A stretch of 32,000 bases of DNA from Candidatus Methylomirabilis oxygeniifera (GCA_000091165.1 FP565575.1:1620001-1652000), one strand, 5' to 3'. Positions 15,772 through 31,112 are shown, counted from the first letter of the stretch. Program-made: numbers and translations. The notes: generated by a model from the letters alone, not told the origin.

Positions 15772-15849
15772 CTTTCCCATGCGTGATGTGGGTAGAGTTG
15801 CTCGGCTCCCGCTTGGGCGACGAGCGAACACTTGGGGGGCTAGGCTTCC

Positions 15850-17583: not shown

Positions 17584-17595
17584 GGGCATACGATA

Positions 17596-18858
17596 ATGGT
17601 CTATCTATTAGTTGGGCTCGCACGTCGCGTTACTTTTTTACCGATCGTCATTGTTGCCGTCGCCATACTGGGCGCTTGCAGCCGCGCCCCAGAACAAAAA
17701 CCGGCAGCGCCCGCGAGTAAACCTGAGCCGGACACGGTCACGATTTCGACCGAGGCTCAGGTTAGGTTCGGCTTTGCCGTCGCCCGGCCGCAGCGGATAA
17801 CGCCGGTCCGATTCATTGAAGCCACAGCCGCCATCGCGCCGGATCCGGCGCGCGTAAGCCACATCGCGCCGATCGCCAAGGGGCGAATCGAACGAGTCTA
17901 TGTGCAGGTCGGCGATGCCGTGAACCAGGGGACCCCCCTTTTCGGGTACGACAACATCGAACTGGGGGAGGCCATTGGGGACTATCGGGGTGAGCTGGCC
18001 GAGTTGCAGAAGGACCTCGCCCTCATGGAACACCACCGGGAGATGTGGGAACGTGCCAAGTTGCTGTTGGAAAAAGAGGCGATAGCCCGCAAAGAGGTCC
18101 ACATACGAGAAACGGAGTACCTGGTGGAAAAAGCAGCGGTCGAGAGCCGGTACGCCAGGATTGCCAGGGCGAGGGAGAAGTTGATTCGCTTCGGGATGAC
18201 GAATGAGCAGATCGAGGGTCTGGTGAACAGGCAAGAGCGCGCTCTGCCCCCTGAAACCTCGCACACAATTGTCAGAGCGCCGATCAGCGGTGTCATCATC
18301 AAGCGAGAGGGGGCGCCTGGCGAGGTGGTCGGGCCCGAAAAAGAACTATTGGCGATCGCCGACCTCACGAGTATCTGGACGCTGGTGGACATTTATGAGA
18401 AGGACCTGGGCCAAGTTCGACGTGGGACGGCCGCAGAAATCAACGTTGAGGCGTACCCGGGCGAAACCTTTCGCGGCACCATCAGCTACGTCAGTGATCT
18501 CCTCGATCCCGACACGCGGACAGCCAAGGCGCGAGTGGAGATCCCCAACCCTCAACGCAAATTGAAGCTCGGAATGTTCGCGACCGTCAGGCTTCGGGCC
18601 CGGGTTGCCGATGGAACAGAGGCGGTGACGGCGATTCCCTCAACGGCCATTCAACAGATCGATGGACAGCCGTCGGTATTTGTCAAACTTAACCCGACAA
18701 CCTTTCAGCGACGGAAGGTGAAGCTTGGCCCTGCATCGGGGGACCTCGTTGAGATTGCCGAAGGCCTGAAAGAGGACGAACAACTGGTGACAACGGGCAG
18801 TTTCACACTGAAATCCGAGTTCCTCAAGGAACAACTCGCTCAGGGGGAGGGTCAATAA
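17596..18858 (+). CDS. RND efflux periplasmic adaptor (membrane fusion protein, CzcB-like)
   Basis: It has a lipobox-like ILGAC, coiled-coil hairpin segments and beta-barrel/MP domains (APISGVIIKREGAPGEVV, FATVRL). Confidence 0.87.
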   Translation: MVYLLVGLARRVTFLPIVIVAVAILGACSRAPEQKPAAPASKPEPDTVTISTEAQVRFGFAVARPQRITPVRFIEATAAIAPDPARVSHIAPIAKGRIERVYVQVGDAVNQGTPLFGYDNIELGEAIGDYRGELAELQKDLALMEHHREMWERAKLLLEKEAIARKEVHIRETEYLVEKAAVESRYARIARAREKLIRFGMTNEQIEGLVNRQERALPPETSHTIVRAPISGVIIKREGAPGEVVGPEKELLAIADLTSIWTLVDIYEKDLGQVRRGTAAEINVEAYPGETFRGTISYVSDLLDPDTRTAKARVEIPNPQRKLKLGMFATVRLRARVADGTEAVTAIPSTAIQQIDGQPSVFVKLNPTTFQRRKVKLGPASGDLVEIAEGLKEDEQLVTTGSFTLKSEFLKEQLAQGEGQ

Positions 18859-18876
18859 TCCCCGGAAGGATCTTTC

Positions 18877-21800
18877 ATGCTCCAGCGTATTTTTGAGCTG
18901 TCTCTGGAGAACCGGTTTCTTGTTCTGATCCTCACCGGTCTCCTTATCCTGGTGGGCATTGTCGCCTTGCGTGACCTGCCGATCGACGCCGTCCCGGACG
19001 TCACGACGGTGCAGGTTCAGATTCTGACCAAGACGGCGCCGATGGGTCCGGTAGAGGTAGAGCGCTATGTCACCTTCCCGATTGAGGCGGCCATGAGCGG
19101 CCTGCCGGATTTGGAAGAACTGCGCTCGGTGAGTCGATTCGGTCTGTCGGCCGTGACCGCGGTGTTCAAGGACCACGTCAACGTCTACTTTGCCCGGCAA
19201 CTGGTGGCCGAACGGCTGGCAACCGCCAAAGAACAGATTCCCTCCGGCTTCGGGACGCCTGAACTCGCGCCGGTCACGACGGGGCTGGGCGAGGTGTATC
19301 AGTTCGTGGTCAAGGGCGAAGGGTATACGCCGATGCAACTGCGCGAGATTCTCGATTGGCAGATCGCCTACAGGCTGCGCGCGGTCCCTGGCGTCGTAGA
19401 GGTCTCGCAATGGGGCGGGTATGCGAAGCAGTACCACGTGGTTGTAGACCAGAGAAAACTTGTCTCATATCGAATTCCTATCGGTCGGGTGTTTGAGGAG
19501 CTTGAGAAGAATAACGCCATCGCCGGCGGCGGTTATATCGAGCACAACAGCGAGGCCTATGTGATTCGAGGCGAGGGACTGGTTGAAACTCAGGAGGACC
19601 TCTCTCGCATCTTGGTCGGTACCGGACCGGGCGGCACACCCATTACAATGGCGCAACTGGGTCAGGTGAAAATCGACAGCATGCCGCGGATCGGCGCTGC
19701 CACGCAGGACGGCGTCGGTGAAACGGTCGTCGCTATGGCGCTGATGCTTCGCGGCGGCAACGGCCGCGTCGTAGCCGAGCGGATTAAAGACGAGGTCGAG
19801 CGGATGAAGCCGAGTCTGCCGCCCGGGGTCTTCATTGAGCCATACTACGACCGATCAGACCTTGTGAACAAGGTCATCCGAACCGTCACCACCAATCTGA
19901 TCGAGGGGGCGCTCTTGGTAATCGCGGTGTTGCTCCTCTTGCTCGGCAACCTCCGAGGCGCTCTGATCGTCGCCGCAGCGATCCCTCTTTCGATGCTGGT
20001 GGCCTTCACGGGAATGGTCCAGACAGGGATCTCAGGCAACCTCATGAGCCTGGGCGCGATCGATTTCGGACTGATCGTGGACGGCACGGTGGTGATGATT
20101 GAAAATATCGTCCGGCATCTGGCGGAAGCGCGAGGGGTGCGGAAAGCGGAACGTCCCCTCATTATCCTCCGAGCCGGGCGGGAGGTCCTGCGGCCGATCT
20201 TCTTCGCCGTCAGCATTATCGTCATCGTCTACCTGCCGATTCTCACATTACAGGGCGTCGAGGGGAAGATGTTCAAGCCGATGGCGTTCACGGTCATCTT
20301 CGCGCTCCTCGGATCGCTGATCTTGTCGTTCACCCTCATGCCGGTCCTGGCTTCGCTGTTTCTGCGAGGACCGATTGCTGAGGGCGATTCGTGGCTGCTG
20401 CGCCGGGTCAAGATCCTGTACCTGCCGCGACTGGCTTGGTGCGTCCATCACCCGAAGATGACGGCCCTTGTTGCGGCATCGGCCTTTACCCTCAGCCTCG
20501 TGTTTGTACCGTTCCTGGGCGGGGAGTTCATTCCGCAACTCGATGAGGGTGACCTGGTGTTGCAAACCTGGCGTCTACCGAGTACTGCCTTGAACCAATC
20601 CATCAAGGACTCCCTTGAAATTGAACGTGCCCTCCTCCGTTTTCCTGAGGTGCGACAGGTCGTGTCGAGGATCGGGTCGCCGGAAATCGCGACCGACGTC
20701 ATGGGAATGGACATGTCCGATGTCTTCGTGGCCCTCCGACCGCCGCGGGCGTGGAAGACCGGCATGACCAAAGAGCAGTTGATCGACCAGCTTGCCGCAG
20801 CCCTCGCGTCTGAGGTTCCCGGCGTGGGGATCAGCTTTACCCAGCCCATCGAGATGCGTTTCAATGAATTGATCGCCGGCATCAAATCCGATCTTGGACT
20901 CAAGATTTTCGGTGACGATCTCAAGATTCTCAAGGAAAAAGGGGACCAGGCGGCCCACATTCTGCGACAGATCCGTGGGGGCGAGGATGTCCGGGTCGAG
21001 CAGGTGGCCGGCCTCCCGGCGCTGCGGATCCAGGTCGACCGGCGACGAATCGCCAGATACGGAATCAACACAGCGGATGTCCTAGCCGCTGTGGAGGCTG
21101 CCGGCGCCGGGAGGGTGGTAGGAACGGTCTTTGAGGGGCAGCGGCGATTTCCTCTGGTCGTTCGAGCGGTCGGCAGCGGCCGTACTGATCTGCCTTCTTT
21201 CCAGGACCTGCCCGTTGCCGCCCCAAATGGCGCCCTCATCCCTCTTGCGCAACTGGCCTCCGTCAACATCGAGGAGGGTCCGGCCCAAGTGAGCCGTGAA
21301 GATATCAGTCGGCGGATCGTCGTAGAAGCCAATGTCAGAGGTCGCGACCTGAGCTCGTTTGTACGCGAGGCGCAAGACCGAATTGCCAAAGAACTCACGC
21401 TGCCTCCTGGCTATCATATTAAGTGGGGCGGGCAATTCGAAAACCTGGCGCGGGCAACCAGTCGCCTCGCCATCGTCGTTCCTCTCTCGCTGTGCCTGAT
21501 CTTTGTCCTGCTGTACACCACCTTCAATGCAGTCCGACCCGCCCTGCTGATCTTTTTGAACGTTCCACTGGCGGTAACTGGGGGAGTTCTCGCATTGGCC
21601 TTACGCGGACTACCGTTCAGCATCTCTGCGGGAGTGGGTTTCATTGCCCTGTTCGGCGTCGCCGTCCTGAACGGCGTGGTACTAATGAGTTACATCCTAC
21701 ACCTTCGCGAGGAGGGGCTCTCGGCGAGCGATGCCGCGTTTAAGGCCGCCGAGATCCGTCTGCGGCCGGTCTTGATGACCGCCCTTGTCGCCGGCCTCGG

Positions 21801-21960
21801 GTTTATTCCGATGGCGCTGTCCCATGGCATCGGCGCCGAGGTCCAACGTCCGCTGGCTACCGTCGTCATCGGCGGCCTCGTCACATCCACCCTACTGACA
21901 CTCTTCGTCCTCCCGAGCCTCTATCGCTGGTTTGAACGTGAACCCGCAGACGCCGCCTAA
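18877..21960 (+). CDS. czcA: Heavy-metal efflux RND pump, CzcA/CnrA-like (divalent-cation type)
   Basis: 1027 aa with 12-TM RND topology. The TM4 motif is SLGAIDFGLIVDGTVVMIEN (nt ~20056-20106). This is the DFG..DG..EN signature of divalent HME-RND pumps. It is not the A-x-G..DAA form of CusA. Confidence 0.9.
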   Translation: MLQRIFELSLENRFLVLILTGLLILVGIVALRDLPIDAVPDVTTVQVQILTKTAPMGPVEVERYVTFPIEAAMSGLPDLEELRSVSRFGLSAVTAVFKDHVNVYFARQLVAERLATAKEQIPSGFGTPELAPVTTGLGEVYQFVVKGEGYTPMQLREILDWQIAYRLRAVPGVVEVSQWGGYAKQYHVVVDQRKLVSYRIPIGRVFEELEKNNAIAGGGYIEHNSEAYVIRGEGLVETQEDLSRILVGTGPGGTPITMAQLGQVKIDSMPRIGAATQDGVGETVVAMALMLRGGNGRVVAERIKDEVERMKPSLPPGVFIEPYYDRSDLVNKVIRTVTTNLIEGALLVIAVLLLLLGNLRGALIVAAAIPLSMLVAFTGMVQTGISGNLMSLGAIDFGLIVDGTVVMIENIVRHLAEARGVRKAERPLIILRAGREVLRPIFFAVSIIVIVYLPILTLQGVEGKMFKPMAFTVIFALLGSLILSFTLMPVLASLFLRGPIAEGDSWLLRRVKILYLPRLAWCVHHPKMTALVAASAFTLSLVFVPFLGGEFIPQLDEGDLVLQTWRLPSTALNQSIKDSLEIERALLRFPEVRQVVSRIGSPEIATDVMGMDMSDVFVALRPPRAWKTGMTKEQLIDQLAAALASEVPGVGISFTQPIEMRFNELIAGIKSDLGLKIFGDDLKILKEKGDQAAHILRQIRGGEDVRVEQVAGLPALRIQVDRRRIARYGINTADVLAAVEAAGAGRVVGTVFEGQRRFPLVVRAVGSGRTDLPSFQDLPVAAPNGALIPLAQLASVNIEEGPAQVSREDISRRIVVEANVRGRDLSSFVREAQDRIAKELTLPPGYHIKWGGQFENLARATSRLAIVVPLSLCLIFVLLYTTFNAVRPALLIFLNVPLAVTGGVLALALRGLPFSISAGVGFIALFGVAVLNGVVLMSYILHLREEGLSASDAAFKAAEIRLRPVLMTALVAGLGFIPMALSHGIGAEVQRPLATVVIGGLVTSTLLTLFVLPSLYRWFEREPADAA

Positions 21961-21993
21961 TCCTCCGAGATATTTGTTAAATCCACTGAAGGT

Positions 21994-22086: not shown

Positions 22087-22143
22087 GCCAGAACAGAAGA
22101 CGATACCCAGCGGTTTGCCGAGGGGTCGTTCATTCTTTTTCGC

Positions 22144-22173
22144 TTGACAGCAGTAATCAGGCTTCGATAGCCT
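22144..22173 (+). promoter_or_regulatory. Candidate sigma70 promoter for small protein A and the copCD module
   Basis: TTGACA (22144-22149), an 18-nt spacer, then TAGCCT (22168-22173). The geometry matches the candidate at 15742. This is a motif match only. Confidence 0.3.
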
Positions 22174-22230
22174 ACAAATAGTTGGGAAACAGGCCAAAAC
22201 CGGTAGGCGAAACAGGGTGTATATCCTAAC

Positions 22231-22566
22231 ATGCAAAGATTACATCAAAAGTCCGTAATTCGCCTGCGCCTCAAAACCTTGGCGGCTGCGTCGTTCGGCT
22301 TTTATCTGCTTCTCAACGCCTTCCTCACGCACTGCCTCATCAACCCTCACAACGCACACTTACAAGGCCAAGCCACTACTAGTCCTCTCGCCTCGCTCTG
22401 TGCGTGGGTCCATAAGACCGTTTCGCCTCATACGCCATCAGTCGGATTGATTCTGCCCATAATTGCGGCGGCTCTGTTCATCGTGGCGGCGCCCCTGCAG
22501 CGCTCTTCCCAATTCCAACCCATCAAGCCTATCGGTCGGTCCCCGCCCCAGCTCTGCTTCGTGTAA
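22231..22566 (+). CDS. Small two-helix membrane protein with His/Cys motif and C-terminal GRSPP tail (paralog A)
   Basis: 111 aa. It is a paralog of the 26248 ORF, with roughly half of aligned residues identical by eye. Shared blocks are YLLLN.FL..CL..PHN.HLQGQ, C.WVHKTVSPH.PS and GRSPP. Differences inside the conserved blocks are mostly synonymous. Confidence 0.72.
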   Translation: MQRLHQKSVIRLRLKTLAAASFGFYLLLNAFLTHCLINPHNAHLQGQATTSPLASLCAWVHKTVSPHTPSVGLILPIIAAALFIVAAPLQRSSQFQPIKPIGRSPPQLCFV

Positions 22567-22680
22567 TCCCTTTCAACCGACGGCTTCGCCGTCTACCAAG
22601 CACTGATAGCAGTTAGAGATTTTTCGGGCGACGCATCAACACATTCAGTATCGTAGCCCTGTTTGCTGGTTAATAAGTCT

Positions 22681-22778
22681 CCCGTGTCATTGCGAGGCGA
22701 AGCCGAAGCAATCTCGCAGTCCTCCAGAACAACAACGATGAGATTGCCGCGCTCCCTTCAGTTGCTCGCAATAACGGG
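22681..22778. repeat. REP/MITE-like palindromic element
   Basis: The arms are cccgtgtcattgcgag (22681-22696) / ctcgcaataacggg (22765-22778), with an internal hairpin gcgaggcgaagccgaagcaatctcgc. Confidence 0.55.
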
Positions 22779-22846
22779 TCAGTGAGTGGCGTAGTCTCGG
22801 GGCAAACGTTCATGTCGGGATCGTAAGTCCACATTCGGGAGGGAAG

Positions 22847-23833
22847 ATGATGCGTCAACGAACCGGTTGGCTCAGTATACGCTTATTGTTATTAGGTATT
22901 GCCGTTGTGATCGCGTTGCCGACCGCCGGGTGGGCTCACGGCGTCGTAGGCAAGCGGTGGTTCCCGTCTACGTTGGCAGTCGAAGACCCGTTCGTCTCTG
23001 ACGAGTTAAGTACCGTGGTTGAACACATTAGAGACCCTCACGCCCTGGAGACTGAGATCGAGATGGAGCTGACCAAGCGGCTGACCCCGAATCTGGCGAT
23101 TGGGATCGGCGGCACACGCAGCATCATCAGACCTCGCGGTGGACACGGCGAAGAAGGCGAAGAACATGAGCATGGAGAGGCGACCGGAACGTCTCATGGC
23201 TGGCAAAATCCGGAGTTTATGCTCCGCTACCAGTTCATTCGGGACCCGATGCGAGAGCTGGCCGCTACTGCTGCTATCAATGTATCGCCTGGCGGCGTCG
23301 GTAACAGGAGTGTCGGCAGGCTCTCCGGGACTACCGTCAGCCCGGCCATTCAGATCGGCAAGGGATTTGGCGATCTCCCGGACTGGGCCGACTGGTTCAA
23401 GCCGGTTGCGGTGACCACATCGGTCGGTTTCGACCTGCGCACGAATCGCAACGATAGAGAAGAAGACGCCCAGCACGCCTTCGCCTGGGGAGTCACCATG
23501 ATGTACAGTGTTCCGTATCTGCAGTCGTTTGTGAAAGACGTCGGACTTCCTTGGCCGTTCAACCGCGTGTTCCCCATCGTGGAGTTCAATGGGGAAACCC
23601 TCATCAGCGGACCCGAGAAGGGAAGCCACACCGCCTTTGCGAACCCCGGGCTGATCTGGGCGGGGCGGTACATGCAACTCGGAGTCGAGGCGAAAATTCC
23701 CTTAAACAACACATCAGGCAGCAGCGTCGGAGTGTTAGGGATGGTTCATTTCTTCCTCGACGATATCGCGCCTGATATCTTTACGTGGACACCGTTCCAT
23801 GGCGTCTTGGGACCGCAAACACTGCCGAGATAG
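22847..23833 (+). CDS. Putative outer-membrane beta-barrel protein with a His/Glu-rich loop
   Basis: The signal peptide ends AGWA|HG. About 10-12 alternating amphipathic strands are visible (LAIGIGGT, EFMLRYQF, VAVTTSVGFDL, FAWGVTMMYSV, MQLGVEAKIPL, VGVLGMVHFFL). One loop reads RGGHGEEGEEHEHGEATGTSHGW. The stop lies 8 nt before copC. Confidence 0.68.
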   Translation: MMRQRTGWLSIRLLLLGIAVVIALPTAGWAHGVVGKRWFPSTLAVEDPFVSDELSTVVEHIRDPHALETEIEMELTKRLTPNLAIGIGGTRSIIRPRGGHGEEGEEHEHGEATGTSHGWQNPEFMLRYQFIRDPMRELAATAAINVSPGGVGNRSVGRLSGTTVSPAIQIGKGFGDLPDWADWFKPVAVTTSVGFDLRTNRNDREEDAQHAFAWGVTMMYSVPYLQSFVKDVGLPWPFNRVFPIVEFNGETLISGPEKGSHTAFANPGLIWAGRYMQLGVEAKIPLNNTSGSSVGVLGMVHFFLDDIAPDIFTWTPFHGVLGPQTLPR

Positions 23834-23840
23834 CCGGTCG

Positions 23841-24212
23841 ATGGGACCATGGAGCAGCTCTACGGCTTTCGTGATAGGACTGCTCCTGACGGCGACATCG
23901 GCCTGGGGCCATTCCTTCCCAGACCACTCGGAACCGCGAGTGGGGTGGACGGTCACCAAGCCGCCCGCTCAGGTCAGGATCTGGTTCGACGTACCCATTG
24001 AGCCGATCTTCAGCGCCATCAAGGTGGTCGACGTGAACGGGCAGCAGGTGGATAAACAAGACGGACGCGTGAATCCAGCGGACCACACGGTCTTGGAGGT
24101 AAGCCTTCCATCGCTTCCACCCGGAAAATATCGGGTGTTCTGGCAAGTCATTTCGATCGACACTCACCGCACCGAAGGCGACTATCCGTTTACCATTGGG
24201 GCGAGCCCATGA
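23841..24212 (+). CDS. copC: CopC-domain periplasmic copper-binding protein (Cu(II)-site-only type)
   Basis: The signal peptide is cleaved at AWG|H, making His the first mature residue. It has the CopC fold pattern (KVVDVNGQQV..., PPGKYRVFWQVISIDTHRTEGDYPFTI). The D-x-H ligands are present, and the mature domain contains no Met at all. Confidence 0.87.
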   Translation: MGPWSSSTAFVIGLLLTATSAWGHSFPDHSEPRVGWTVTKPPAQVRIWFDVPIEPIFSAIKVVDVNGQQVDKQDGRVNPADHTVLEVSLPSLPPGKYRVFWQVISIDTHRTEGDYPFTIGASP

Positions 24213-25405
24213 CCGACCTGCAGACCATGCTGCCGATCATCGTCCGCTACCTGGGGTTTGTGAGTCTCACGATGTTGGTCGGCGGCTTCGGCTTTGTGTG
24301 CTTGATCCTTCCGCCACGCCTATTATCCCGCGAGGGTTACCAGATCCTGGATCGACATCTTAGTCGGGTACAAGCCGTCTCGATCCTGATTGTGACGCTT
24401 ACGAGCGTAGCCGATCTGATCTTGAGAACCCTAGCGATGAGCGGCGGGAGCCAGGCCACATTGGGCCTCGCCCTTCCGTTGGTTCTTCAGCATACCCACT
24501 TCGGGACGGTGTGGATCATCAGAACCTTCCTGCTGGGGCTGTTGGGCGCGGCCTGGTGGCTCCGGCTGCAGGGGGCGGCCGCACCCTCGCGGTTCGCCTG
24601 GATTGCCGCGATCCCCCGCGTAGGACTGTCAGGCATGACCTGGTGGCTCAGGCTGCTGGGGACGACCGCCAGCCCACAGTTCGCGTGGGCCTCCTTCTTT
24701 GGCGCCTGCTTCGTGGCCCTCACCACGACCCTCTCAGGCCACGCGGCCGACTGGGGCGATCTGGCGGTTCCAGTACTGGTCGACTGGGTTCACCTCATCG
24801 CGATCTCGATCTGGATCGGCGGGCTGTTCACTTTCGGGTTCGTCCTCAAACGTTCCTTGGCGGCGCCGGGCGCGGAGGAGATGGTACGCGCACTCTCGTC
24901 AATCGCCCGGCTTTTCTCCAGGATAGCGGCCGCCTGTGTGGCCGTCTTTCTGCTGACAGGACTCTACAGCACCTGGTTGCAGGTGGGCGCCCTCTCACCC
25001 CTTGTCACCAGTCCATATGGGTGGACTCTTCTGGTGAAGCTGGCGGTTGTGGTACTGATCCTGGCAATCGCGGCGGTCAACCGACTCTACTTTCTTACCC
25101 GGTTAGGACCAAGCGCGACCACTCACGGTCGATTGGCCTTCAGAACAATCCGACGCGTCGGCGGCAATCCACGAGCAGCCAACGAGACCGGAGACGACCG
25201 GCGGATCCGATACCGGTTTTCCCGGTTTGTCCGGCTGGAGTGGATCATGGTAATGATCACGCTGGCCTGTTCAGCGCTTCTCACCCAACTGATGCCGGCC
25301 CGTCATGTACGTCATCTCGAACATCTCAAGCAACATCAGCACAGCGGTAGCCATCCGTCGGCGCACGACACCCCGATAGCAATGCTACCATCAGCGCGAG
25401 AGTAG
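24209..25405 (+). CDS. copD: CopD-family inner-membrane protein (enlarged, with internal duplication and His-rich tail)
   Basis: An ATGA overlap links it to copC. It is multi-TM with CopD-like motifs (HLIAISIWIGGLF). An 87-nt tandem duplication lies at 24552-24725. The C-terminal tail is HVRHLEHLKQHQHSGSHPSAH. Confidence 0.84.
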   Translation: MTDLQTMLPIIVRYLGFVSLTMLVGGFGFVCLILPPRLLSREGYQILDRHLSRVQAVSILIVTLTSVADLILRTLAMSGGSQATLGLALPLVLQHTHFGTVWIIRTFLLGLLGAAWWLRLQGAAAPSRFAWIAAIPRVGLSGMTWWLRLLGTTASPQFAWASFFGACFVALTTTLSGHAADWGDLAVPVLVDWVHLIAISIWIGGLFTFGFVLKRSLAAPGAEEMVRALSSIARLFSRIAAACVAVFLLTGLYSTWLQVGALSPLVTSPYGWTLLVKLAVVVLILAIAAVNRLYFLTRLGPSATTHGRLAFRTIRRVGGNPRAANETGDDRRIRYRFSRFVRLEWIMVMITLACSALLTQLMPARHVRHLEHLKQHQHSGSHPSAHDTPIAMLPSARE

Positions 25406-25409
25406 GTGC

Positions 25410-25712
25410 GTGTTGACAGTGAACCGGCCTCGCGTACAACACATCAAAGCGCTGGCCCTCGTCCTGGCCCTTTTGCTGTTCGTGTTCGGGGCCGCGCAGC
25501 ACTCGGCCCACCATCTCAGTCATCTCAACCAGCCGATCCAGTGCGTGGTTTGCTCGGCCTCAGCACATCTGGCCGGGGTCGCGGTCGAGTCTGTGGCCAT
25601 CGAGAAACCGGCTCTGCTCTTGGAGTTCGTTCCCGGAACCCGCTTTACCGATCCTTCTATCGCTTGTCTCAGTCCTGCCCACGGACGCGCTCCTCCTTCT
25701 TTTACTGCCTGA
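25410..25712 (+). CDS. Small membrane protein with HxxHHxxH + CxxC motifs and C-terminal GRAPP tail (DUF2946-like)
   Basis: A GTG/TTG start lies 5 nt after the copD stop. It has an N-terminal TM segment (ALALVLALLLFVFGA), then AQHSAHHLSHLNQPIQCVVCSASAHL, and ends HGRAPPSFTA. Confidence 0.6.
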   Translation: MLTVNRPRVQHIKALALVLALLLFVFGAAQHSAHHLSHLNQPIQCVVCSASAHLAGVAVESVAIEKPALLLEFVPGTRFTDPSIACLSPAHGRAPPSFTA

Positions 25713-25736
25713 ACTTCACGTCATTCCTTAGACAAT

Positions 25737-25850
25737 AGCGTTCAGCAGTCAGCCTCAGGCCCTCACCCCCGTCCCCTCTCCCAGTGGGAGAGGGAGGCCG
25801 AAGGCTGGGTGAGGGGAGTATGGGCTATGCTGAACGCTGAAAGCTGATCA
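25737..25850. repeat. Long nested palindrome (REP/MITE-like)
   Basis: An 11-bp perfect inverted repeat, agcgttcagca (25737-25747) / tgctgaacgct (25829-25839), encloses ctcaccc...gggtgag and cccctctccc-agtg-ggagagggag. The right end, gctgaacgctgaaagctgatc, recurs at 26770. Confidence 0.65.
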
Positions 25851-25895
25851 CTTAGGCAGAATTGCATTGACGAGTCATTGGGAGGAGTCACAGCC

Positions 25896-26102
25896 ATGAA
25901 CAAGCATTTATTGCGCGTCGATGAAGCGGCGATACTGCTGAGCGTCAGCCGTTGGACCATTTACCGTTGGGTGCAGGAGGGTCGATTGGAGGCGACCAAG
26001 GTCGGGAAAGGGAGTCTCCGCATTTTTCAAGCCTCTGTAGCTTCGCTGATCGAGCAGAACCGAACCTTGAGCAGGGATCCGGTTAATTGCCATAACGGTT
26101 AG
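25896..26102 (+). CDS. Excisionase-family (MerR-superfamily) helix-turn-helix DNA-binding protein
   Basis: A GGAGGAG RBS precedes ATG 25896. The sequence LLRVDEAAILLSVSRWTIYRWVQEGRLEATKVGKGSLRI is the classic excisionase-type HTH. No integrase is present in the window. Confidence 0.8.
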   Translation: MNKHLLRVDEAAILLSVSRWTIYRWVQEGRLEATKVGKGSLRIFQASVASLIEQNRTLSRDPVNCHNG

Positions 26103-26247
26103 CCGTCCGGAGTAGCTCCTGGCGGTTGGAGCGCCAGTCTCCGATAGCGACGTAAGTGTGGAGCATTTTGTAGCAGCAGTGAGCAGGCGTCTGTAGACAC
26201 GCTCGTCCGGAGAAAGTAAAAAGAGCCATGCACTATTTTCCTCTTCT

Positions 26248-26613
26248 GTGTCGTCGGCTGAAGGAGACGGAGCTGGACCCGTGGCGCTCGTGAGTCGACC
26301 ATCCCATGAAGCTCGGCCTCTGAGGCCTCTTGCGGTATCAGCGCTCTGTCTTTATCTGCTGCTCAATGTATTCCTCATCCTGTGCCTGGTCCATCCCCAT
26401 AATACCCACCTCCAAGGCCAGACAGATAGTCATCCCGGCTCTGTCTGTGAGTGGGTTCACAAAACCGTCTCTCCCCATGTGCCATCGTCAGGAGTCTCCC
26501 TGCCGTTGGCGGCGACTGTGCTGCTCGCCTGCCTCCCGGTGCTGCGGCGTACTTCTGAGCCCTGCCTCATCCGGCTGACCGGCCGTTCCCCACCCCTGCT
26601 CGCCTTCGCGTAG
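26248..26613 (+). CDS. Small two-helix membrane protein with His/Cys motif and C-terminal GRSPP tail (paralog B)
   Basis: It is a paralog of 22231..22566. The more likely start is GTG 26281 (GGAG 8 nt upstream) or GTG 26290. It immediately precedes the exbB-exbD-tonB-receptor module. Confidence 0.72.
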   Translation: MSSAEGDGAGPVALVSRPSHEARPLRPLAVSALCLYLLLNVFLILCLVHPHNTHLQGQTDSHPGSVCEWVHKTVSPHVPSSGVSLPLAATVLLACLPVLRRTSEPCLIRLTGRSPPLLAFA

Positions 26614-26741
26614 CTCTTTCCACTCGATTATTCGACCTGTACCACCAACGTTATCTCGCTTGAACTCGTGCGCCTGGGCCTTACTCAAGGCCGGCGATGA
26701 ACAAACGATCCGAGAAACCGGAAGCGTTCTACAGCGATGTC

Positions 26742-26792
26742 GGGTTACGCTGCGCTAACCCGACCTACGGCTGAACGCTGATGGCTGATCGC
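26742..26792. repeat. REP-like element sharing a 21-nt block with the 25737 element
   Basis: It has the hairpin gggttacgctgcgctaaccc. The block gctgaacgctgatggctgatc matches gctgaacgctgaaagctgatc (25830-25850) at 19 of 21 positions. Confidence 0.5.
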
Positions 26793-26844
26793 GTTGCGGA
26801 ACCGAAGGGATCCTTGACCATATACGCACGTGAGGGAGATAGAA

Positions 26845-27447
26845 ATGTCTGAACTTATTGCGCTTCTCATTAAAGGGGGACCGGTCATGATCCCCCTCCT
26901 CTGCTGTTCGATCACCTCGCTGGCCGTAGTCATCGAACGAGGACTGTTCTGGTGGCGCCTGCGTCCCTCCGGGGAGATGGAACATCTGCTCATGCTGGCG
27001 TCGGCCGGCAACTGGGAGGATGCGCACAAATTCGGCGAGCTGTCCCGCTCTCCGGTAGCGCGCGTCCTCGCGGCCGGGATCCGTCATCGGAACCCGGCCC
27101 CCACGCTGGCGATGGAGGCCGCCGCCCATGAAGAGCTGACCCACATGCGGCGCTACCTACCATTACTCGATACGGTCATCACCTTGTCGCCTCTGTTGGG
27201 TCTCCTGGGCACCGTCACCGGAATGATCGGCAGCTTCGGGGTCATGGCCTCCGGCGGCATCAACCAACCCCACGCCATCACCGGCGGGGTGGCCGAAGCG
27301 CTCATCGCGACCGCGACGGGCCTTGGGATCGCTATTGCTACCTTGGTCCCATACAACTACTTCACAACGCGGGTCGAGCGGATCATGGGCGACATCGAGC
27401 GCTACGGCTCTCGCCTGGAGCTGGCCCTGAAGGAACCCCATCGATGA
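26845..27447 (+). CDS. exbB: MotA/TolQ/ExbB proton-channel protein
   Basis: A GAGGGAG RBS precedes the start. It has three TM segments and the conserved C-terminal half LLGLLGTVTGMIGSF...GGVAEALIATATGLGIAI. Confidence 0.9.
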   Translation: MSELIALLIKGGPVMIPLLCCSITSLAVVIERGLFWWRLRPSGEMEHLLMLASAGNWEDAHKFGELSRSPVARVLAAGIRHRNPAPTLAMEAAAHEELTHMRRYLPLLDTVITLSPLLGLLGTVTGMIGSFGVMASGGINQPHAITGGVAEALIATATGLGIAIATLVPYNYFTTRVERIMGDIERYGSRLELALKEPHR

Positions 27448-27863
27448 AACTGCTGCAGCGCCCGCCAAAGAAGGCCCGCATCGAGATCATCCCGCTGATC
27501 GACACGATCTTCTTCCTGCTGGTCTTCTTCATGATGGCGTCCCTCTCGATGGCGGTCTATCGGGGGGTGCCGGTCAACCTCCCGAAGGCGGCCAGCGGCC
27601 AACGCGAGGTCAAAGAGAACGCAGCCCTGACGGTGACCAAAGACGGCGAGCTATTCCTCGACAAGCAGCCGATCGCTTGGGACGCGCTTCCGAACCGTCT
27701 CACAGCCCTGATGACCGCGAATCCGGAGCTGACCGTCATCATCAACGCCGATGAAGACGTCCCGCACGGTCGCGTCGTGGAGGCGATGGATGTCGCGCGC
27801 GGGGCCGGTGTCGGTCGAATGGCGATTGCGGTCAAACCGACAGAGGCGCGCAGGCGCCCATGA
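27444..27863 (+). CDS. exbD: ExbD/TolR biopolymer transport protein
   Basis: An ATGA overlap links it to exbB. It has IEIIPLIDTIFFLLVFFM and a periplasmic domain (INADEDVPHGRVVEAMDVARGAG). Confidence 0.9.
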   Translation: MKLLQRPPKKARIEIIPLIDTIFFLLVFFMMASLSMAVYRGVPVNLPKAASGQREVKENAALTVTKDGELFLDKQPIAWDALPNRLTALMTANPELTVIINADEDVPHGRVVEAMDVARGAGVGRMAIAVKPTEARRRP

Positions 27864-28732
27864 CCTCACGCGCTTTTACGCTACCGTTGTTCGCATCGCT
27901 CCTGCTGCACGTAGCCGGGCTCGTCACTGCTCGCCTGACGGCGCTCAGCAGTGACACGCCTGTCCCGACATTGATCCCTATCGAGGTGGTAACGGTGCAG
28001 TCCACGCCGCCTGCTCCCCTCCTCCGACCAAAATCGAAGCCGCCTGCAGTGCGGGAGATCACACCGTCACGACCCATCGAGCAACCTCCTTCTCCCCCCG
28101 CTATCCAATCATCTGCAGAACTTCCGCCGCTACCCCAAGAGCTGCCGCCGAGCCTGCCGCCCCCTTCCCCAACACAAGTAGAGGAGCCACAACCTGCTCC
28201 CGTCATCCCTCTGCCCGCCACGGAGCCGACAGATCCTCCAGGCAACGTGATGGGACCGGTTGCGGTGACCGGCAGCCAAGCAGTCCCCTCCTCTGCGCCG
28301 GCAGAAGGAGGAGAGGCGGGGGCCGGACAGCTCTTTGCGAAGGGCGATACGGCCGTCCTCCCTGGGGCAGGGGCGGGAGGAGGCAGTGGAGGACCCGGTA
28401 AGAGCGGGCTTGGCCTCGGAATGACCGATACCGGCGCCAAGGTGACCGGCCTTCAGCTTGGCGTTGCCAGACTTCGAGGCGGCTACCAGATCAAGCCCCG
28501 ATATCCGGAATCGGCGCGGCGACAAGGCATCCAGGGTACGAGCCTGCTCAGGCTGCACGTGCTCGCCGATGGCGCTGTTGGGGAGGTCCTGGTGGAACGG
28601 TCTGCCGGTCACCCGGATCTCGATAGAGCTGCCGTCAGGGCGGTGAAAAAGTGGCGGTTCGAACCGGCCCGGCGCGGCGGCCAATCTGTCGCCGTACGGG
28701 TAATGCTCCCTGTCCGGTTTGAGTTGAGATGA
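27860..28732 (+). CDS. tonB: TonB energy transducer
   Basis: An ATGA overlap links it to exbD. It has an N-terminal anchor (SLLLHVAGL), a long Pro-rich spacer and a TonB C-terminal domain (YPESARRQGIQGTSLLRLHVLADG...AVKKWRFEPA). Confidence 0.88.
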   Translation: MTSRAFTLPLFASLLLHVAGLVTARLTALSSDTPVPTLIPIEVVTVQSTPPAPLLRPKSKPPAVREITPSRPIEQPPSPPAIQSSAELPPLPQELPPSLPPPSPTQVEEPQPAPVIPLPATEPTDPPGNVMGPVAVTGSQAVPSSAPAEGGEAGAGQLFAKGDTAVLPGAGAGGGSGGPGKSGLGLGMTDTGAKVTGLQLGVARLRGGYQIKPRYPESARRQGIQGTSLLRLHVLADGAVGEVLVERSAGHPDLDRAAVRAVKKWRFEPARRGGQSVAVRVMLPVRFELR

Positions 28733-28769
28733 CGAGCGATTATGGACGTTCATACAAAAGGAGATAACG

Positions 28770-31112
28770 ATGCAACGATGCGGATGTAAGCGCACCTGCA
28801 GGCGCGCAGCAGCCTTTATGGGACTGGCATCGCTCCTCGCATGGGGCGCCTTCGCAAGTGAAAGGGTCGTCTGGGCCCAGCTCCAGGCCGCCCCGGATCC
28901 TCAGCAGTTAGCTCAGAAGGTGCAGCGACGTCAGGAACTGCTGCGTGAGTTGGAGCAGATCGAGAAGGATCTGGGGATGCCACCCGCCCCTGCTCCACCG
29001 GCGGAGCAAGTGTCGAGTCCGACGCCCGACCAGCCGGTCACCCTGGAGCCGGTTAAGGTGCTCGCCACCAAAATGGAGGAGAAACCGATTGGCCGAACCG
29101 TCAGCACCGTTGAACGGGAGGACATCGAGCACGCGCGAGGCTTCAGCGTCAAGGAGCTCCTCGAGGCTACCCCAGGGGTCTTCCTCAAGGAAGGGAACGG
29201 ACCTCGTGACGTGGGCATCTCTATTCGAGGGTCCGGAGCCAAGCAATCCTTTGCTGTCCGAAACATCAAGGTCTTCGATGACTGGTTTCCAACGACCCAA
29301 CCGGACGGCCTCGCACGGATGGACCTGAACGATCCCCATGCCTATGAAGGGGTCGATGTCCTGCGAGGTCCCTCATCGGCATTTTATGACAACTACGCTC
29401 TCGGAGGCGTGGTGAATTTCCGCACCCGGAAAGGGCGCGACATCCACGGGTTTGAAGTGGGAAATGAGGGCGGCAGTTACGGCTATTCGAATCATTACGT
29501 CCAGATCGGCGATCAACTCGATAAGTTTGAATACTCCCTCTTTGGAAGCCACGTCCGGGGTGATGGGTTTCTAGCCCACAGCAAGTTCAACACCACCACC
29601 GAAAACCTGGTGGCCACCTTTACGCCGGATGACAAGCGATCGATCACGCTGAAGTTTATCAATAACGACCTCGACACCAAGGTGCCAAGCCGCCTGACGC
29701 TGGCGGAATTTCGAGCCGATCCACGGGGCGCAGGGCGCACCTTTGTCACCGGCAAGGGTTTCGTTACCCCCCAGCAGGCAGACCAGGGAAGAAACGATAA
29801 TCGCACGATTGTCGGCGCCCGATACGAACACCAACTGGACCCACAGACCGGGTTCCGCCTTCTGGGGAGCTACGATTATAAGGACATTAACCAGACCTTC
29901 GGAACGATCGGCGACAACGAGAACCCCAGCTTTAATTTCTATGCCGACGTCACCCGGGAAGGGAACCTGTTGGGCCTGACGGCGAAACATTATGTCGGCC
30001 TCTTCTTCAATCGCATCGAGCAGGAATCGAGTAGTTTCTTCAACCTGGCCGACGGTCAGGGCAGCCGCGGCGACTTGCAGGCCAATACCCGGGGGCACAT
30101 TCGTAATATCGGGGGTCGCGTGCGGGAGGAGGTCCAGTTCTCGCCGCAATGGACCGGATACCTCGGGGTAGGCGTGGAGGGCTCGGAGATTCGGGCCGAA
30201 GTCCGATCCCGCAACAGCACGACCGCCCCGCTCAGCAGGATCGAGGTAAGACGTGAATTCATGAGTGTCGCGCCGGAGGCAGGGGTCATCTACCGCGTGA
30301 ATCCGGACCTCCAGCTCCGCGGACGGGTGGCAACCGCTTACGGCATCCCGGGAATCGGCAATCTGACGACAGCCACGACGGGGCTCGCCGGGAACAATAC
30401 CGGCTTGAAGCCGCAGCGGAATGTCGGGGTGGAGCTGGGGTTCGATCTCCGACCCCTGCCGACGGTCACGGCGAGCCTGACCGGCTACTACGAATTCTAT
30501 TTCAACGAATTCATTACACAGTCGCCCGGTGCCGGCCTCTCCTCCTTTACCAGCAACGCCCCCAACGCCGAGCATCGCGGGATCGAGGCGGAGCTGGCTT
30601 GGCGGCCCTTCGCGGGGGCAAAGGTGTCAACCTCATATACCTTCAACGACCACATCTACACAGAGTTCACCGAGAATATCTGCTCCAGTACCACGTGCAA
30701 GAGTTTCGATCGGAGCGGCAATAAGATCCCGGGCGTTGAGCGCCATATCCTGAACGCGAGGATCGCGTATGACACCAGCCATCACAGTGAATGGTGGCGT
30801 GGGGTGGGCGGCTGGTTGGAGGTTAACTGGCTGGACGATTTCTACGTGAACAACAGCAACACGCTAAAGACGTTGCCCTACCAACTGGTGAACCTGAATC
30901 TCCATTACGACCGGGAGGTCACGATCCCATTCGCCCGATCGCTGTCGGCCTTCTTTGAGATTCAGAATCTGTTCGACGCGACGTACATCGCCAGCGCCAA
31001 CGTCGTCGCGGATTCGCTCAGCGATACGCCGGCCAATCTGGCGACATCGAAGCAGGCGTTTTTTGCCGGTCAGCCCAGATCCTACTTTGCCGGCCTTAAG
31101 CTCAGGTTTTAG
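28770..31112 (+). CDS. TonB-dependent outer-membrane receptor (substrate unknown)
   Basis: An AAGGAG RBS precedes the start. It has plug motifs (ISIRGSG..., VDVLRGPSSAFYDNYALGGVVNF), a 22-strand barrel pattern and a terminal ...AGLKLRF. An unusual Gln/Pro-rich N-terminal extension precedes the plug. Confidence 0.92.
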   Translation: MQRCGCKRTCRRAAAFMGLASLLAWGAFASERVVWAQLQAAPDPQQLAQKVQRRQELLRELEQIEKDLGMPPAPAPPAEQVSSPTPDQPVTLEPVKVLATKMEEKPIGRTVSTVEREDIEHARGFSVKELLEATPGVFLKEGNGPRDVGISIRGSGAKQSFAVRNIKVFDDWFPTTQPDGLARMDLNDPHAYEGVDVLRGPSSAFYDNYALGGVVNFRTRKGRDIHGFEVGNEGGSYGYSNHYVQIGDQLDKFEYSLFGSHVRGDGFLAHSKFNTTTENLVATFTPDDKRSITLKFINNDLDTKVPSRLTLAEFRADPRGAGRTFVTGKGFVTPQQADQGRNDNRTIVGARYEHQLDPQTGFRLLGSYDYKDINQTFGTIGDNENPSFNFYADVTREGNLLGLTAKHYVGLFFNRIEQESSSFFNLADGQGSRGDLQANTRGHIRNIGGRVREEVQFSPQWTGYLGVGVEGSEIRAEVRSRNSTTAPLSRIEVRREFMSVAPEAGVIYRVNPDLQLRGRVATAYGIPGIGNLTTATTGLAGNNTGLKPQRNVGVELGFDLRPLPTVTASLTGYYEFYFNEFITQSPGAGLSSFTSNAPNAEHRGIEAELAWRPFAGAKVSTSYTFNDHIYTEFTENICSSTTCKSFDRSGNKIPGVERHILNARIAYDTSHHSEWWRGVGGWLEVNWLDDFYVNNSNTLKTLPYQLVNLNLHYDREVTIPFARSLSAFFEIQNLFDATYIASANVVADSLSDTPANLATSKQAFFAGQPRSYFAGLKLRF

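What the first reader, a model, noticed from the sequence alone, without database searches (positions are those of the whole stretch)
22231..26613. Two paralogous small His/Cys-motif membrane proteins under purifying selection, each heading a metal-transport module
**Seen in the sequence**
- ORFs 22231..22566 and 26248..26613 align end to end with one gap. Roughly half of the aligned residues are identical by eye.
- Three invariant blocks are shared: YLLLN-x-FL-xx-CL-xx-PHN-x-HLQGQ, C-x-WVHKTVSPH-x-PS, and a C-terminal GRSPP.
- Inside the WVHKTVSPH block the two genes differ almost only at third codon positions: tgg gtc cat aag acc gtt tcg cct cat versus tgg gtt cac aaa acc gtc tct ccc cat.
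- The same holds in YLLLN/PHN.HLQGQ (ctt/ctg, aac/aat, cct/ccc, cac/cat, tta/ctc, caa/cag).

**Inference**
- This pattern is the signature of real proteins under selection rather than chance ORFs.
- Both are predicted to have an N-terminal helix, a His/Cys-bearing loop, a second helix and a short basic/Pro tail.
- Paralog A precedes the beta-barrel/copC/copD module. Paralog B precedes exbB-exbD-tonB-receptor.
- I do not recognise a characterised family. The closest resemblance, from memory, is to DUF2946-type small proteins found next to TonB-dependent copper receptors.
- Possible roles are a metal-sensing, chaperoning or gating subunit shared by two different uptake machines. All of these are speculative.
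Basis: partly seen in the sequence, partly recalled or inferred. Interest (0 to 1): 0.78.

Follow-up and report, generated by a model that had tools for sequence, protein, structure and literature searches.

The report
Paired metal-sensing ribosome-stalling leader peptides
Two related small genes in a methane-oxidising NC10 bacterium are real and conserved, and most likely encode leader peptides that sense copper while being made and stall the ribosome to switch the metal-transport genes behind them on or off, a recently discovered control principle seen here in a new sequence family and phylum.

Summary
ORFs 22231..22566 (A) and 26281..26613 (B; the true start is probably 33 nt inside the reported ORF) are 52% identical (E 1e-31). 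They are conserved in many Methylomirabilota (NC10) lineages, with dN/dS of about 0.3. The window is Candidatus Methylomirabilis oxyfera.

R-[S/A]-P-P lies 4-5 residues before the stop in every member, and distant members have RAPP. An invariant Cys lies exactly 46 residues upstream in all 45 copies examined. This is the architecture of CruR/CutF (DUF2946): an export signal, a Cys/His metal site, a spacer of about 45 residues, a RAPP-type ribosome-arrest motif, first position before copper genes, and a long intergenic gap. I therefore read A and B as cis-acting, metal-responsive arrest-peptide leaders, not as transporter subunits. This is inference; nothing was tested experimentally.

Neither protein matches Pfam DUF2946, so this is a separate, NC10-restricted family. 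A third small ORF (25410..25712, GRAPP) does match DUF2946 weakly. A fourth (15850..16188) precedes czcCBA. How stalling is coupled to downstream expression is unresolved: SD-masking was not supported, and Rho-type features are only suggestive. I call it a new variant of a known kind, of moderate interest.

The parts
22231..22566 (+). Paralog A, 111 aa (CBE68955.1, 'exported protein of unknown function'): basic N-terminus, TM1 with Y25/C35, His-rich loop, C57-x-W59, hydrophobic segment 2, GRSPP and a 5-aa nonpolar tail
22399..22401 (+). Codon of invariant Cys57 of A, exactly 46 residues before Arg103
22537..22548 (+). R103-S-P-P106 codons of A (CGG TCC CCG CCC): proposed ribosome-arrest site, 5 codons before the stop
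   Evidence: RSPP is arrest-permissive according to PMC12992588
22567..22846 (+). 280-nt leader between A and the 328-aa gene. About 45 nt after the stop are conserved among orthologs. It carries a REP-like hairpin insertion (~22687-22775) that most orthologs lack
22847..25405 (+). Module downstream of A: 328-aa protein with no family match (22847..23833), CopC (23799..24212), CopD (24209..25405)
25410..25712 (+). Third small ORF (CBE68959.1; 97-100 aa): TM, HSxHHLxH, C45xxC48, GRAPP (25686..25697) and a 4-aa tail. Weakly DUF2946-like; it starts 5 nt after the copD stop
25878..26102 (+). 74-aa HTH_17/excisionase-family DNA-binding protein, syntenic in all NC10 loci between the third small ORF and B
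26281..26613 (+). Paralog B, 110 aa from GTG 26281 (the ORF extends to GTG 26248). Not annotated in the reference genome; an identical protein is annotated in a MAG (KAB2959148.1)
26584..26595 (+). R-S-P-P codons of B (CGT TCC CCA CCC): proposed arrest site, 5 codons before the stop
26614..26844 (+). 231-nt leader between B and exbB. The first ~60 nt are C-rich and G-poor (C 0.34, G 0.17) and conserved among B- and C-type paralog leaders. A hairpin follows (26668-26693 in the window), then a REP-like hairpin (~26724-26756)
26845..31112 (+). Module downstream of B: exbB (ATG 26845; ORF from 26830), exbD 27444..27863, tonB 27860..28732, TonB-dependent receptor 28770..31112
15850..16188 (+). Fourth small ORF, 112 aa: N-terminal hydrophobic segment, HDHSHS, Cys residues, C-terminal DPPFLPPRQA. 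It lies 132 nt upstream of czcC (czcCBA 16321..21960). CzcI/CutF-like by position and rule, not by sequence match
   Evidence: CzcI context from PMC9973294

Best explanation
A and B are cis-acting, metal-responsive leader peptides of the CruR/CutF type. Each is translated from the 5' end of a transcript that continues into metal-transport genes.

Proposed mechanism (inferred by analogy, not shown):
- The basic N-terminus and TM1 target the nascent chain to the membrane.
- A ligand set built around the invariant Cys35 and Cys57-x-Trp, plus the lineage-conserved His40/43/61/67, samples metal, most likely copper.
- When the ribosome reaches Arg-Ser-Pro-Pro, 46 residues after Cys57 and 5 codons before the stop, peptide-bond formation is intrinsically impaired, as at RAPP motifs.
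- Whether the stall persists or is relieved depends on whether the sensor segment, which has just left the exit tunnel, has bound metal, folded or been pulled.
- The stalled or released ribosome then decides whether the long leader downstream is transcribed or translated into the following genes.

Both downstream modules look like uptake machinery: an unknown protein with CopC and CopD after A, and ExbBD-TonB with a receptor after B. The gaps are 230-280 nt. I therefore favour the CruR logic: the stall protects the transcript when metal is scarce, and metal relieves the stall and attenuates the downstream genes, possibly through Rho.

Shown here: the anatomy, its conservation, the fixed spacing and the gene context. 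Inferred: the stalling itself, the metal, the direction of regulation and the coupling mechanism.
For: 1. R-[S/A]-P-P is invariant in 57 core members and in distant members at 22-27% identity, which carry RAPP.
2. It is kept through synonymous change, so selection acts on the peptide: the Arg codon is CGG 9, CGT 8, CGC 8, CGA 5; Pro1 is CCA, CCG or CCT.
3. The motif always lies 4-5 residues from the stop, and the tail behind it evolves neutrally (pN/pS at least 1.2, against 0.15-0.22 in the sensor blocks).
4. The offset from Cys(CxW) to Arg is exactly 46 in all 45 copies (30 unique), although the loop before the Cys varies in length. In CruR, CXXC (90-93) and RAPP (139-142) are separated by 45 residues, so Cys93 to Arg139 is also 46. 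There the spacing is conserved to within 1-2 residues and a +5 insertion breaks regulation (PMC9426467).
5. RSPP is arrest-permissive in ApdA/ApdP, was selected as an arrest sequence in E. coli screens, and is depleted from bacterial proteomes (PMC12992588).
6. Context: family members sit in front of CopC/CopD, ExbBD-TonB-TBDR, TBDRs next to NosL or CopD plus cupredoxin, or BBP2 porins. Gaps to the next called gene or confirmed downstream homolog are about 130-330 nt. In the C-type loci (L011-L014) the TBDR lies about 750-790 nt downstream, beyond a small intervening ORF. The order czcCBA-A-...-B-... is kept in at least 10 NC10 lineages. This matches the CruR/CutF neighbourhoods.
7. The AlphaFold model has low confidence (pLDDT 65) with a disordered C-terminal 20 residues, and the C-termini are nonpolar (LLAFA, QLCFV). 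CruR is likewise short-lived and poorly structured.
8. The B/C-type leaders keep a C-rich, G-poor ~60 nt and a hairpin with 3 compensatory pairs. They are 70-78% identical in pairs where synonymous sites are only 40-60% identical.
Against: - No experiment of any kind: stalling, metal binding and regulation are all unobserved.
- No significant sequence match to PF11162. Profile-profile comparison with the DUF2946-like neighbour is not significant (probability 1%). The resemblance could therefore be convergent, or only an analogy.
- RSPP is a weaker arrest motif than RAPP or RGPP.
- The N-terminal half, including TM1, is more strongly conserved than a disposable leader would need. In CruR the export signal was dispensable.
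- Core members have a strongly hydrophobic second segment, so a stable two-helix membrane protein is plausible.
- The coupling to downstream genes is not identified. No SD-masking pairing beats shuffled controls. There is no consensus structure in the A leader. The C>G bias is only around the 90-95th percentile of the window background and is partly explained by Leu/His/Pro codons.
- The receptor is not of the OprC copper type, so the metal is not settled.
Confidence: 0.62

Rival explanations
1. A and B are stable two-helix inner-membrane proteins that bind metal in a periplasmic His/Cys loop. They would work as accessory subunits (chaperone, sensor or gate) of CopCD and of the ExbBD-TonB-receptor system. 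GRSPP would then be a structural or interaction motif.
For: Two strongly hydrophobic segments, with positive charges at the N-terminus and after segment 2. Strong purifying selection on TM1 and on the Cys/His blocks (0.15-0.22). Y25 and C35 inside TM1 are invariant even in distant members. Synteny with transporters is stable.
Against: It does not explain why R-x-P-P is the most invariant feature, why it is always 4-5 residues from the stop, why the tail behind it drifts neutrally, or why the Cys-to-Arg distance is fixed at 46 as in CruR. The second hydrophobic segment is absent in distant members (P0088, P0089) and is the least constrained region (0.55-0.60). The gaps of 190-330 nt to the next gene argue against stoichiometric co-translation. 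The same small protein type precedes unrelated machines (porin, CopCD, ExbBD, TBDR), which fits a regulator better than a dedicated subunit. The model has low confidence.
Confidence: 0.2
2. Both roles at once: the nascent chain regulates the downstream genes in cis by stalling, and the released protein persists in the membrane as a metal-binding factor.
For: This reconciles the arrest-type C-terminus and spacing with the unusually strong conservation of TM1 and the hydrophobic hairpin.
Against: No direct evidence. CruR and CutF, the only studied examples, are degraded after release.
Confidence: 0.12
3. The similarity to arrest peptides is coincidental. These are lineage-specific small membrane proteins of unrelated function, such as assembly factors for copper enzymes like pMMO, that happen to end in RSPP.
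For: No sequence homology to any characterised arrest peptide. M. oxyfera has a high copper demand (general knowledge of pMMO).
Against: R[AGS]PP near the C-terminus is otherwise rare in these contigs. Of 66 small six-frame ORFs (40-250 aa) that carry R[AGSD]PP within about 14 residues of the end, 55 belong to this family or to the DUF2946-like one; most of the rest look spurious. The shift from S to A in distant members keeps the motif within the known arrest set.
Confidence: 0.06

Closest known systems
CruR (Bp2923) of Bordetella pertussis, DUF2946/PF11162; Roy et al. 2022, mBio (PMC9426467)
   Same: A small exported protein encoded first, in front of a TonB-dependent uptake operon. It has a Cys-based metal sensor, and the Cys-to-Arg offset (46) is the same. 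The R-x-P-P motif lies 3-5 residues before a nonpolar C-terminus. The intergenic gap is long (162 nt in CruR; 230-280 nt here). The 3' end of the ORF is C-rich.
   Different: No detectable sequence homology. CruR has CXXC, whereas here there is a single Cys in C-x-W plus a second invariant Cys at the end of TM1 and several His. The motif is RSPP rather than RAPP in the core clade. The spacer contains a second hydrophobic, TM-like segment. The phylum is Methylomirabilota, which is absent from the published list of CruR homologs. There are several paralogs per genome and three or four such ORFs in one array. Rho dependence is untested.
CutF of Rhodobacter capsulatus and 'CutF-like' proteins; Ozturk et al. 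2023 (PMC9973294) and bioRxiv 10.1101/2025.02.05.636593
   Same: A and B meet the operational definition: under 150 aa, PP within 15 residues of the C-terminus, an N-terminal export signal, a Cys/His metal motif, and a same-strand downstream gene within 1 kb. Neighbours of the OEP/RND, TonB and copper-protein types occur in both.
   Different: CutF uses CxxxC and PPP and has a short intergenic region with an SD-masking stem-loop; copper induces its stalling and activates a detoxifying oxidase. Here the gaps are long, no SD-masking pairing was found, and the downstream genes look like uptake genes, so the sign of regulation is probably opposite.
RAPP-type arrest peptides ApdA/ApdP (and SecM, RAGP); Sakiyama 2021, Morici 2024, Fujiwara 2025 (PMC12992588)
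   Same: A C-terminal R-x-P-P core near the end of a small secretory or membrane protein encoded upstream of the regulated gene. The adjacent N-terminal residues are semi-conserved (I-[RK]-x-T-G-R-S-P-P here).
   Different: Those monitor Sec/YidC activity, not metals. Natural use of RSPP as the family-wide core is not described in the papers I read; there it appears as a partially permissive mutant, in some homologs, and in random screens.
CzcI of Cupriavidus metallidurans (CutF-like SSN cluster 20)
   Same: The fourth small ORF (15850..16188) sits directly upstream of czcCBA, has an N-terminal hydrophobic segment and His/Cys residues.
   Different: No sequence match was tested against CzcI. 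The window ORF ends in DPPxLPPRQA, whereas CzcI is reported to lack a C-terminal proline motif.

Membership tests
Pfam PF11162 (DUF2946) | Significant match to the family HMM (gathering score 23.7 bits) | tested here: not met
   A and B: no hit at E<=1. None of the 57 members hit at E<=10. Best among distant members is P0090 at E 0.14, 13.4 bits, aligned to profile positions 53-117 of 117. The neighbouring ORF 25410..25712 family: 5 of 25 members hit, best E 2.2e-4, still below the cut-off.
Pfam PF11162 (DUF2946) | Remote homology by profile-profile comparison | tested here: inconclusive
   hhalign of the A/B family against the DUF2946-like neighbour family gives probability about 1% and E 0.045-0.051. 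A comparison against the Pfam seed itself could not be run with these tools.
CruR-type copper-responsive uORF (functional class) | N-terminal export signal or Nin-Cout TM segment | tested here: met
   Basic N-terminus followed by a ~22-residue hydrophobic helix. A is annotated 'exported protein' in the reference genome. No dedicated signal-peptide predictor was available.
CruR-type copper-responsive uORF (functional class) | Conserved CXXC copper-binding motif | tested here: not met
   A and B have no CXXC. Instead they have invariant C35 and C57-x-W59, plus His40/43/61/67 conserved in the core clade only. The third ORF has C45xxC48, but C48 is replaced by Ala in many orthologs.
CruR-type copper-responsive uORF (functional class) | RAPP motif a few residues before the C-terminus | tested here: met
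   RSPP (core) or RAPP (distant members), 4-5 residues before the stop, in all 45 copies. RSPP is within the arrest-permissive set.
CruR-type copper-responsive uORF (functional class) | Fixed spacing of about 45 residues between the Cys motif and the arrest motif | tested here: met
   Exactly 45 intervening residues (offset 46) in every copy, the same as reported for CruR.
CruR-type copper-responsive uORF (functional class) | First gene before copper-homeostasis or TonB-dependent transport genes, with a long intergenic distance | tested here: met
   Gaps are about 130-330 nt to the next called or confirmed gene. Neighbours are CopC/CopD, ExbBD-TonB-TBDR, NosL, cupredoxin, HMA and BBP2 porin. 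Caveat: A also lies only ~120 nt (270 nt in the window) downstream of czcA, so it may be internal to a longer transcript.
CruR-type copper-responsive uORF (functional class) | Ribosome stalling at the motif, relief or enhancement by Cu, and a cis effect on downstream expression (Rho-dependent in CruR) | not testable with these tools
   Only indirect hints: C>G bias around the stop codon and a conserved B/C leader.
CutF-like proteins (operational definition of Ozturk et al. 2023) | Under 150 aa; PP within 15 C-terminal residues; N-terminal signal; same-strand downstream gene within 1000 nt; Cys/His motif | tested here: met
   A, B, the third ORF and the 15850..16188 ORF all satisfy the rule. 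SPI cleavage was not predicted here. No Methylomirabilis entry is found in the supplementary text held for that paper.
CutF-type SD-unmasking mechanism | Short intergenic region with a stem-loop masking the downstream SD | tested here: not met
   Gaps of 230-280 nt. Duplex energies between the ORF 3' end and the downstream SD are no better than shuffled controls in 13 loci.

The most novel reading that the evidence does not exclude
The roughly 15-kb co-directional array carries up to four nascent-peptide metal sensors in series: orf112, czcCBA, A, omp328-copC-copD, small ORF 3, HTH, B, exbBD-tonB-receptor. Each sensor would act as a checkpoint that lets transcription or translation run on or stop. 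A single metal signal would then partition expression between efflux (upstream) and uptake (downstream) modules. The NC10 family would add two mechanistic novelties: a natural RSPP arrest core, and a sensor made of a membrane-embedded Cys (end of TM1) and a Cys-x-Trp held 46 residues from the peptidyl-transferase centre. That is, a molecular ruler placing the ligand site at the ribosome-translocon junction. It would also be the first handle on copper acquisition control in a methanotroph that depends on copper pMMO.
Probability: 0.2. Interest if true: 0.78.

Novelty: new variant of a known kind. Interest (0 to 1): 0.55.

Why it matters
Copper-responsive arrest-peptide leaders (CruR in 2022, CutF in 2023-2025) are a young regulatory principle. 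They are known almost only from Proteobacteria and are defined through one Pfam family.

This locus suggests the same design has arisen or diverged beyond sequence recognition in Methylomirabilota. It uses a different ligand set and an RSPP core, with several paralogs per genome and three or four in one gene array.

Two consequences follow:
- Searches based on DUF2946 or on RAPP/RGPP alone undercount such regulators. An architecture rule may find more: a TM segment, Cys/His residues, a spacer of about 45 residues, and R-x-P-P within about 8 residues of the stop.
- It gives concrete, testable candidates for how nitrite-dependent methane oxidisers, which need copper for pMMO, control copper uptake.

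The exact 46-residue ruler shared with CruR is a specific clue to where on the ribosome-translocon path the metal is sensed.

Tried and rejected
1. Pfam and NCBIfam scans of A, B and all family members: no family, including DUF2946.
2. Profile-profile comparison with the DUF2946-like neighbour: not significant.
3. tblastn of a distant member against plasmids, to fetch a bona fide DUF2946 gene: no match. The CruR supplementary table holds accessions only, so no DUF2946 alignment could be built.
4. SD-masking model (SecM/CutF type). The MFE fold of the window's A leader pairs UCCCUUUC, just after the stop, with the downstream GGGAGGGA. However, the fold is no more stable than shuffles (z +0.95), the centroid lacks the pairing, and duplex energies across 13 loci are no better than shuffled controls. 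Rejected as unsupported.
5. Consensus RNA structure in the A leader: none.
6. Known RNA families in 15500-29000: none.
7. Sigma-70 promoter scan of 21900-27000: no site. The terminator-like sites all lie inside coding regions.
8. Rho-utilisation reading: the C>G bias is real but modest and partly compositional. Kept only as a hint.
9. AlphaFold model: pLDDT 65, too weak for a fold search, so none was run.
10. Identity of the 328-aa protein after A: no Pfam, NCBIfam or PDB sequence match. The 'beta-barrel' label remains unverified.
11. OprC-type copper receptor: not supported. The best NCBIfam matches are generic, PqqU or siderophore-receptor models far below their cut-offs.

Full report
**Source and observation.** The window is from Candidatus Methylomirabilis oxyfera/oxygeniifera (phylum NC10/Methylomirabilota). 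Paralog A is 100% identical to CBE68955.1, 'exported protein of unknown function', on a 2.75-Mb contig. The two ORFs exist as described. They align with 52% identity over 97 residues and one gap, E 1e-31. The three blocks and the quoted codon differences are correct. One correction concerns the start of B. Nearly all its orthologs are 110 aa and begin at the position of GTG 26281, so B is probably 26281..26613. B is not annotated in the reference genome, but the identical protein is annotated in a MAG.

**Reality and selection.** Word-based searches found 18 relatives of A and 46 of B, all 49-100% identical and all from NC10 sources.

Median pairwise dN/dS values:

| Region or set | dN/dS or pN/pS |
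|---|---|
| A orthologs, whole gene (55 pairs) | 0.28 |
| B orthologs, whole gene (28 pairs) | 0.32 |
| YLLL...HLQGQ block | 0.17-0.22 |
| CxWVHKTVSxH block | 0.15-0.21 |
| Second hydrophobic segment | 0.55-0.60 |
| Five residues after RSPP | at least 1.2 |

These are genuine, constrained genes.

In the 57-member alignment the invariant positions are Y25, C35, L36, C57, W59, H67 and G102-R-S-P-P106. An exhaustive profile search of 1.84 billion representatives found only 15 hits. Among them are distant members (P0086, P0088-P0090, P0092; 22-27% identical to A). They keep Y25, C35, C57-x-W and the C-terminal motif, but as S-I-R-A-P-P. Across the whole family only L14, Y25, C35, C57, W59, R103, P105 and P106 are invariant.

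I located every copy in the window and in 31 fetched loci. That gave 45 ORFs, 30 of them unique. In every one the offset from the Cys of C-x-W to the Arg of R[SA]PP is exactly 46, and the motif is followed by 4-5 residues and the stop. This holds even though the loop before the Cys varies in length. The motif is kept through synonymous change: all four CGN codons are used for Arg, and CCA, CCG and CCT for the first Pro. Selection therefore acts on the peptide.

**Comparison with known systems.** This anatomy matches CruR of Bordetella pertussis (DUF2946). CruR has:
- an export signal;
- CXXC at residues 90-93;
- 45 intervening residues, conserved to within 1-2 across the family, with a +5 insertion breaking regulation;
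- RAPP at 139-142, three residues before a nonpolar C-terminus;
- first position in front of a TonB-dependent transporter;
- a 162-nt intergenic gap.

In CruR, copper sensed by the nascent chain relieves a ribosome stall at RAPP and allows Rho-dependent termination (PMC9426467). CutF of Rhodobacter capsulatus is a second DUF2946 prototype with the opposite sign of regulation and an SD-masking stem-loop (PMC9973294 and bioRxiv 2025.02.05.636593).

RSPP is not a stranger to this field. Ala-to-Ser variants of the RAPP cores of ApdA and ApdP remain partly arrest-competent. RSPP was recovered in random screens for stalling peptides in E. coli. It is also among the most depleted tetrapeptides in bacterial proteomes (PMC12992588).

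**Gene context.** The order czcC-czcB-czcA, A, 328-aa protein, copC, copD, small ORF 3, HTH_17, B, exbB, exbD, tonB, TBDR recurs in at least ten NC10 lineages.
- A lies about 120 nt after czcA in most lineages. In the window the gap is 270 nt because of a REP-like insertion.
- A is followed by a gap of 190-330 nt. B is followed by 217-260 nt.
- Further paralogs elsewhere in NC10 genomes sit after a NosL cluster, or after CopD and a cupredoxin, and in front of another TonB-dependent receptor.
- The distant RAPP members precede a BBP2 porin with an Aq_1264_TM protein, or lie upstream of a TBDR, next to CopD, cupredoxin, HMA and TonB genes.
- Some contigs carry two or three members.

The family was found only on Methylomirabilota-type contigs. 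It is absent from the published list of CruR homologs and from the supplementary text held for the CutF paper.

**The other small ORFs.** ORF 25410..25712 starts 5 nt after the copD stop. It has a TM segment, HSxHHLxH, C45xxC48 and GRAPP followed by 4 residues. Its Cys-to-Arg offsets are 48 and 45. Five of its 25 orthologs hit PF11162, with a best E of 2.2e-4, which is below the family cut-off. ORF 15850..16188 lies 132 nt upstream of czcC. It is 64% conserved in M. limnetica and ends in DPPxLPPRQ. By position it resembles CzcI, which Ozturk et al. place among the CutF-like proteins. The array therefore holds up to four leader-like ORFs.

**Family membership.** A and B do not match PF11162. 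The best result is E 0.14 for one distant member, aligned from mid-profile to the end. Profile-profile comparison with the DUF2946-like neighbour is not significant. They also lack CXXC. I therefore do not file them as DUF2946 members. They do meet the functional-architecture criteria of CruR and the operational definition of 'CutF-like'.

**Mechanism.** I propose that A and B are cis-acting metal-responsive arrest-peptide leaders, with a confidence of about 0.6. The stall itself, the metal and the direction of regulation are inferred.
- For the metal, copper is favoured by CopC/CopD, NosL, cupredoxin and HMA neighbours. The receptor, however, is not OprC-like.
- For the coupling, I tested the SD-unmasking model and found no support.
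- The long gaps favour transcription-level control as in CruR.
- The B/C-type leaders keep a C-rich, G-poor stretch of about 60 nt right after the stop (C/G 1.7-2.7). This stretch is more conserved than synonymous sites in several distant pairs. It is followed by a hairpin with three compensatory pairs.
- These signals are modest. The A leader shows no consensus structure, and no Rfam family matches.

**Rivals.** It does not explain the invariant R-x-P-P, its fixed distance to both the Cys and the stop, the neutral tail, or the loss of the second hydrophobic segment in distant members. A dual role cannot be excluded.

**Verdict.** This is a new, phylum-restricted variant of the recently described copper-responsive arrest-peptide leaders. 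It has an RSPP core, a different ligand set and a serial arrangement. Interest is moderate (0.55). It would be higher if stalling and the serial-checkpoint reading were shown experimentally.

Noticed in passing
window 25410-25712: A third small ORF directly after copD: TM segment, HSxHHLxH, CxxC, GRAPP and 4 residues. It is the only one of the small ORFs with a (weak) Pfam DUF2946 signal. UniRef names it 'DUF2607 family protein'. It sits at the end of the copCD unit rather than at the head of an operon, and upstream of a conserved HTH gene.
   Followed up: partly
window 15850-16188: A 112-aa ORF 132 nt upstream of czcC. It has an N-terminal hydrophobic segment, HDHSHS, three Cys, and a C-terminal LDPPFLPPRQA. 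It is 64% identical in M. limnetica (L009 1643-2017). It may be a CzcI/CutF-like leader for the RND efflux operon.
   Followed up: partly
window 25878-26102: A 74-aa HTH_17/excisionase-family (MerR-like fold) DNA-binding protein, conserved in synteny between the third small ORF and B in all NC10 loci. It may be a transcriptional regulator of the array.
   Followed up: no
window 21985-22100, 22687-22775, 25736-25849, 26724-26790: REP-like palindromic elements fill the intergenic regions. Examples are GTCATTGCGAGGCGAAGCCGAAGCAATCTCGC...; GGCCCTCACCCCCGTCCCCTCTCCCAGTGGGAGAGGGAGG; GTCGGGTTACGCTGCGCTAACCCGAC; and the repeated GCTGAACGCTGA(A/T)(A/G)GCTGATC. Their presence varies between orthologous loci, and they generate spurious minus-strand ORFs.
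   Followed up: partly
window 24536-24688 (inside copD): An internal tandem duplication of 66 nt at 87-nt spacing, 74% identical. It encodes two copies of a G(L/M)xxxWWLRLxG...FAW segment in CopD.
   Followed up: no
window 28770-31112: The best NCBIfam match of the TonB-dependent receptor is the PQQ importer PqqU (E 1.8e-50, but 172 bits against a cut-off of 1200), not the OprC copper type. From memory, M. oxyfera is reported to lack PQQ biosynthesis, so the substrate of this receptor deserves a look.
   Followed up: no
L003 1225-5698 (GCA_973789875.1 contig): Three arrest-type small ORFs lie within 6 kb after a czcC homolog. An RSPP member (1225-1611) is immediately followed by a RAPP member (1772-2104). 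After a BBP2 porin, an Aq_1264_TM gene and a 195-aa gene comes an unrelated 149-aa protein with a TM segment, His residues, CPVHFWH and a C-terminal TRAPPALS (Cys-to-Arg offset 47).
   Followed up: partly
L009 12601-12807; L011 and L014 ~8557-8844: In some lineages a conserved small gene (68-95 aa, MSxHMSHEKxVHPSxDYFxEALRILDND...) is inserted between the B/C-type leader ORF and the transporter genes. It is absent from the window.
   Followed up: no
L015 (DATMXF010000038.1): A contig labelled 'Patescibacteria group bacterium' carries A, omp328 and copC at 79-93% identity to the window. It is almost certainly a mis-binned Methylomirabilis contig.
   Followed up: no
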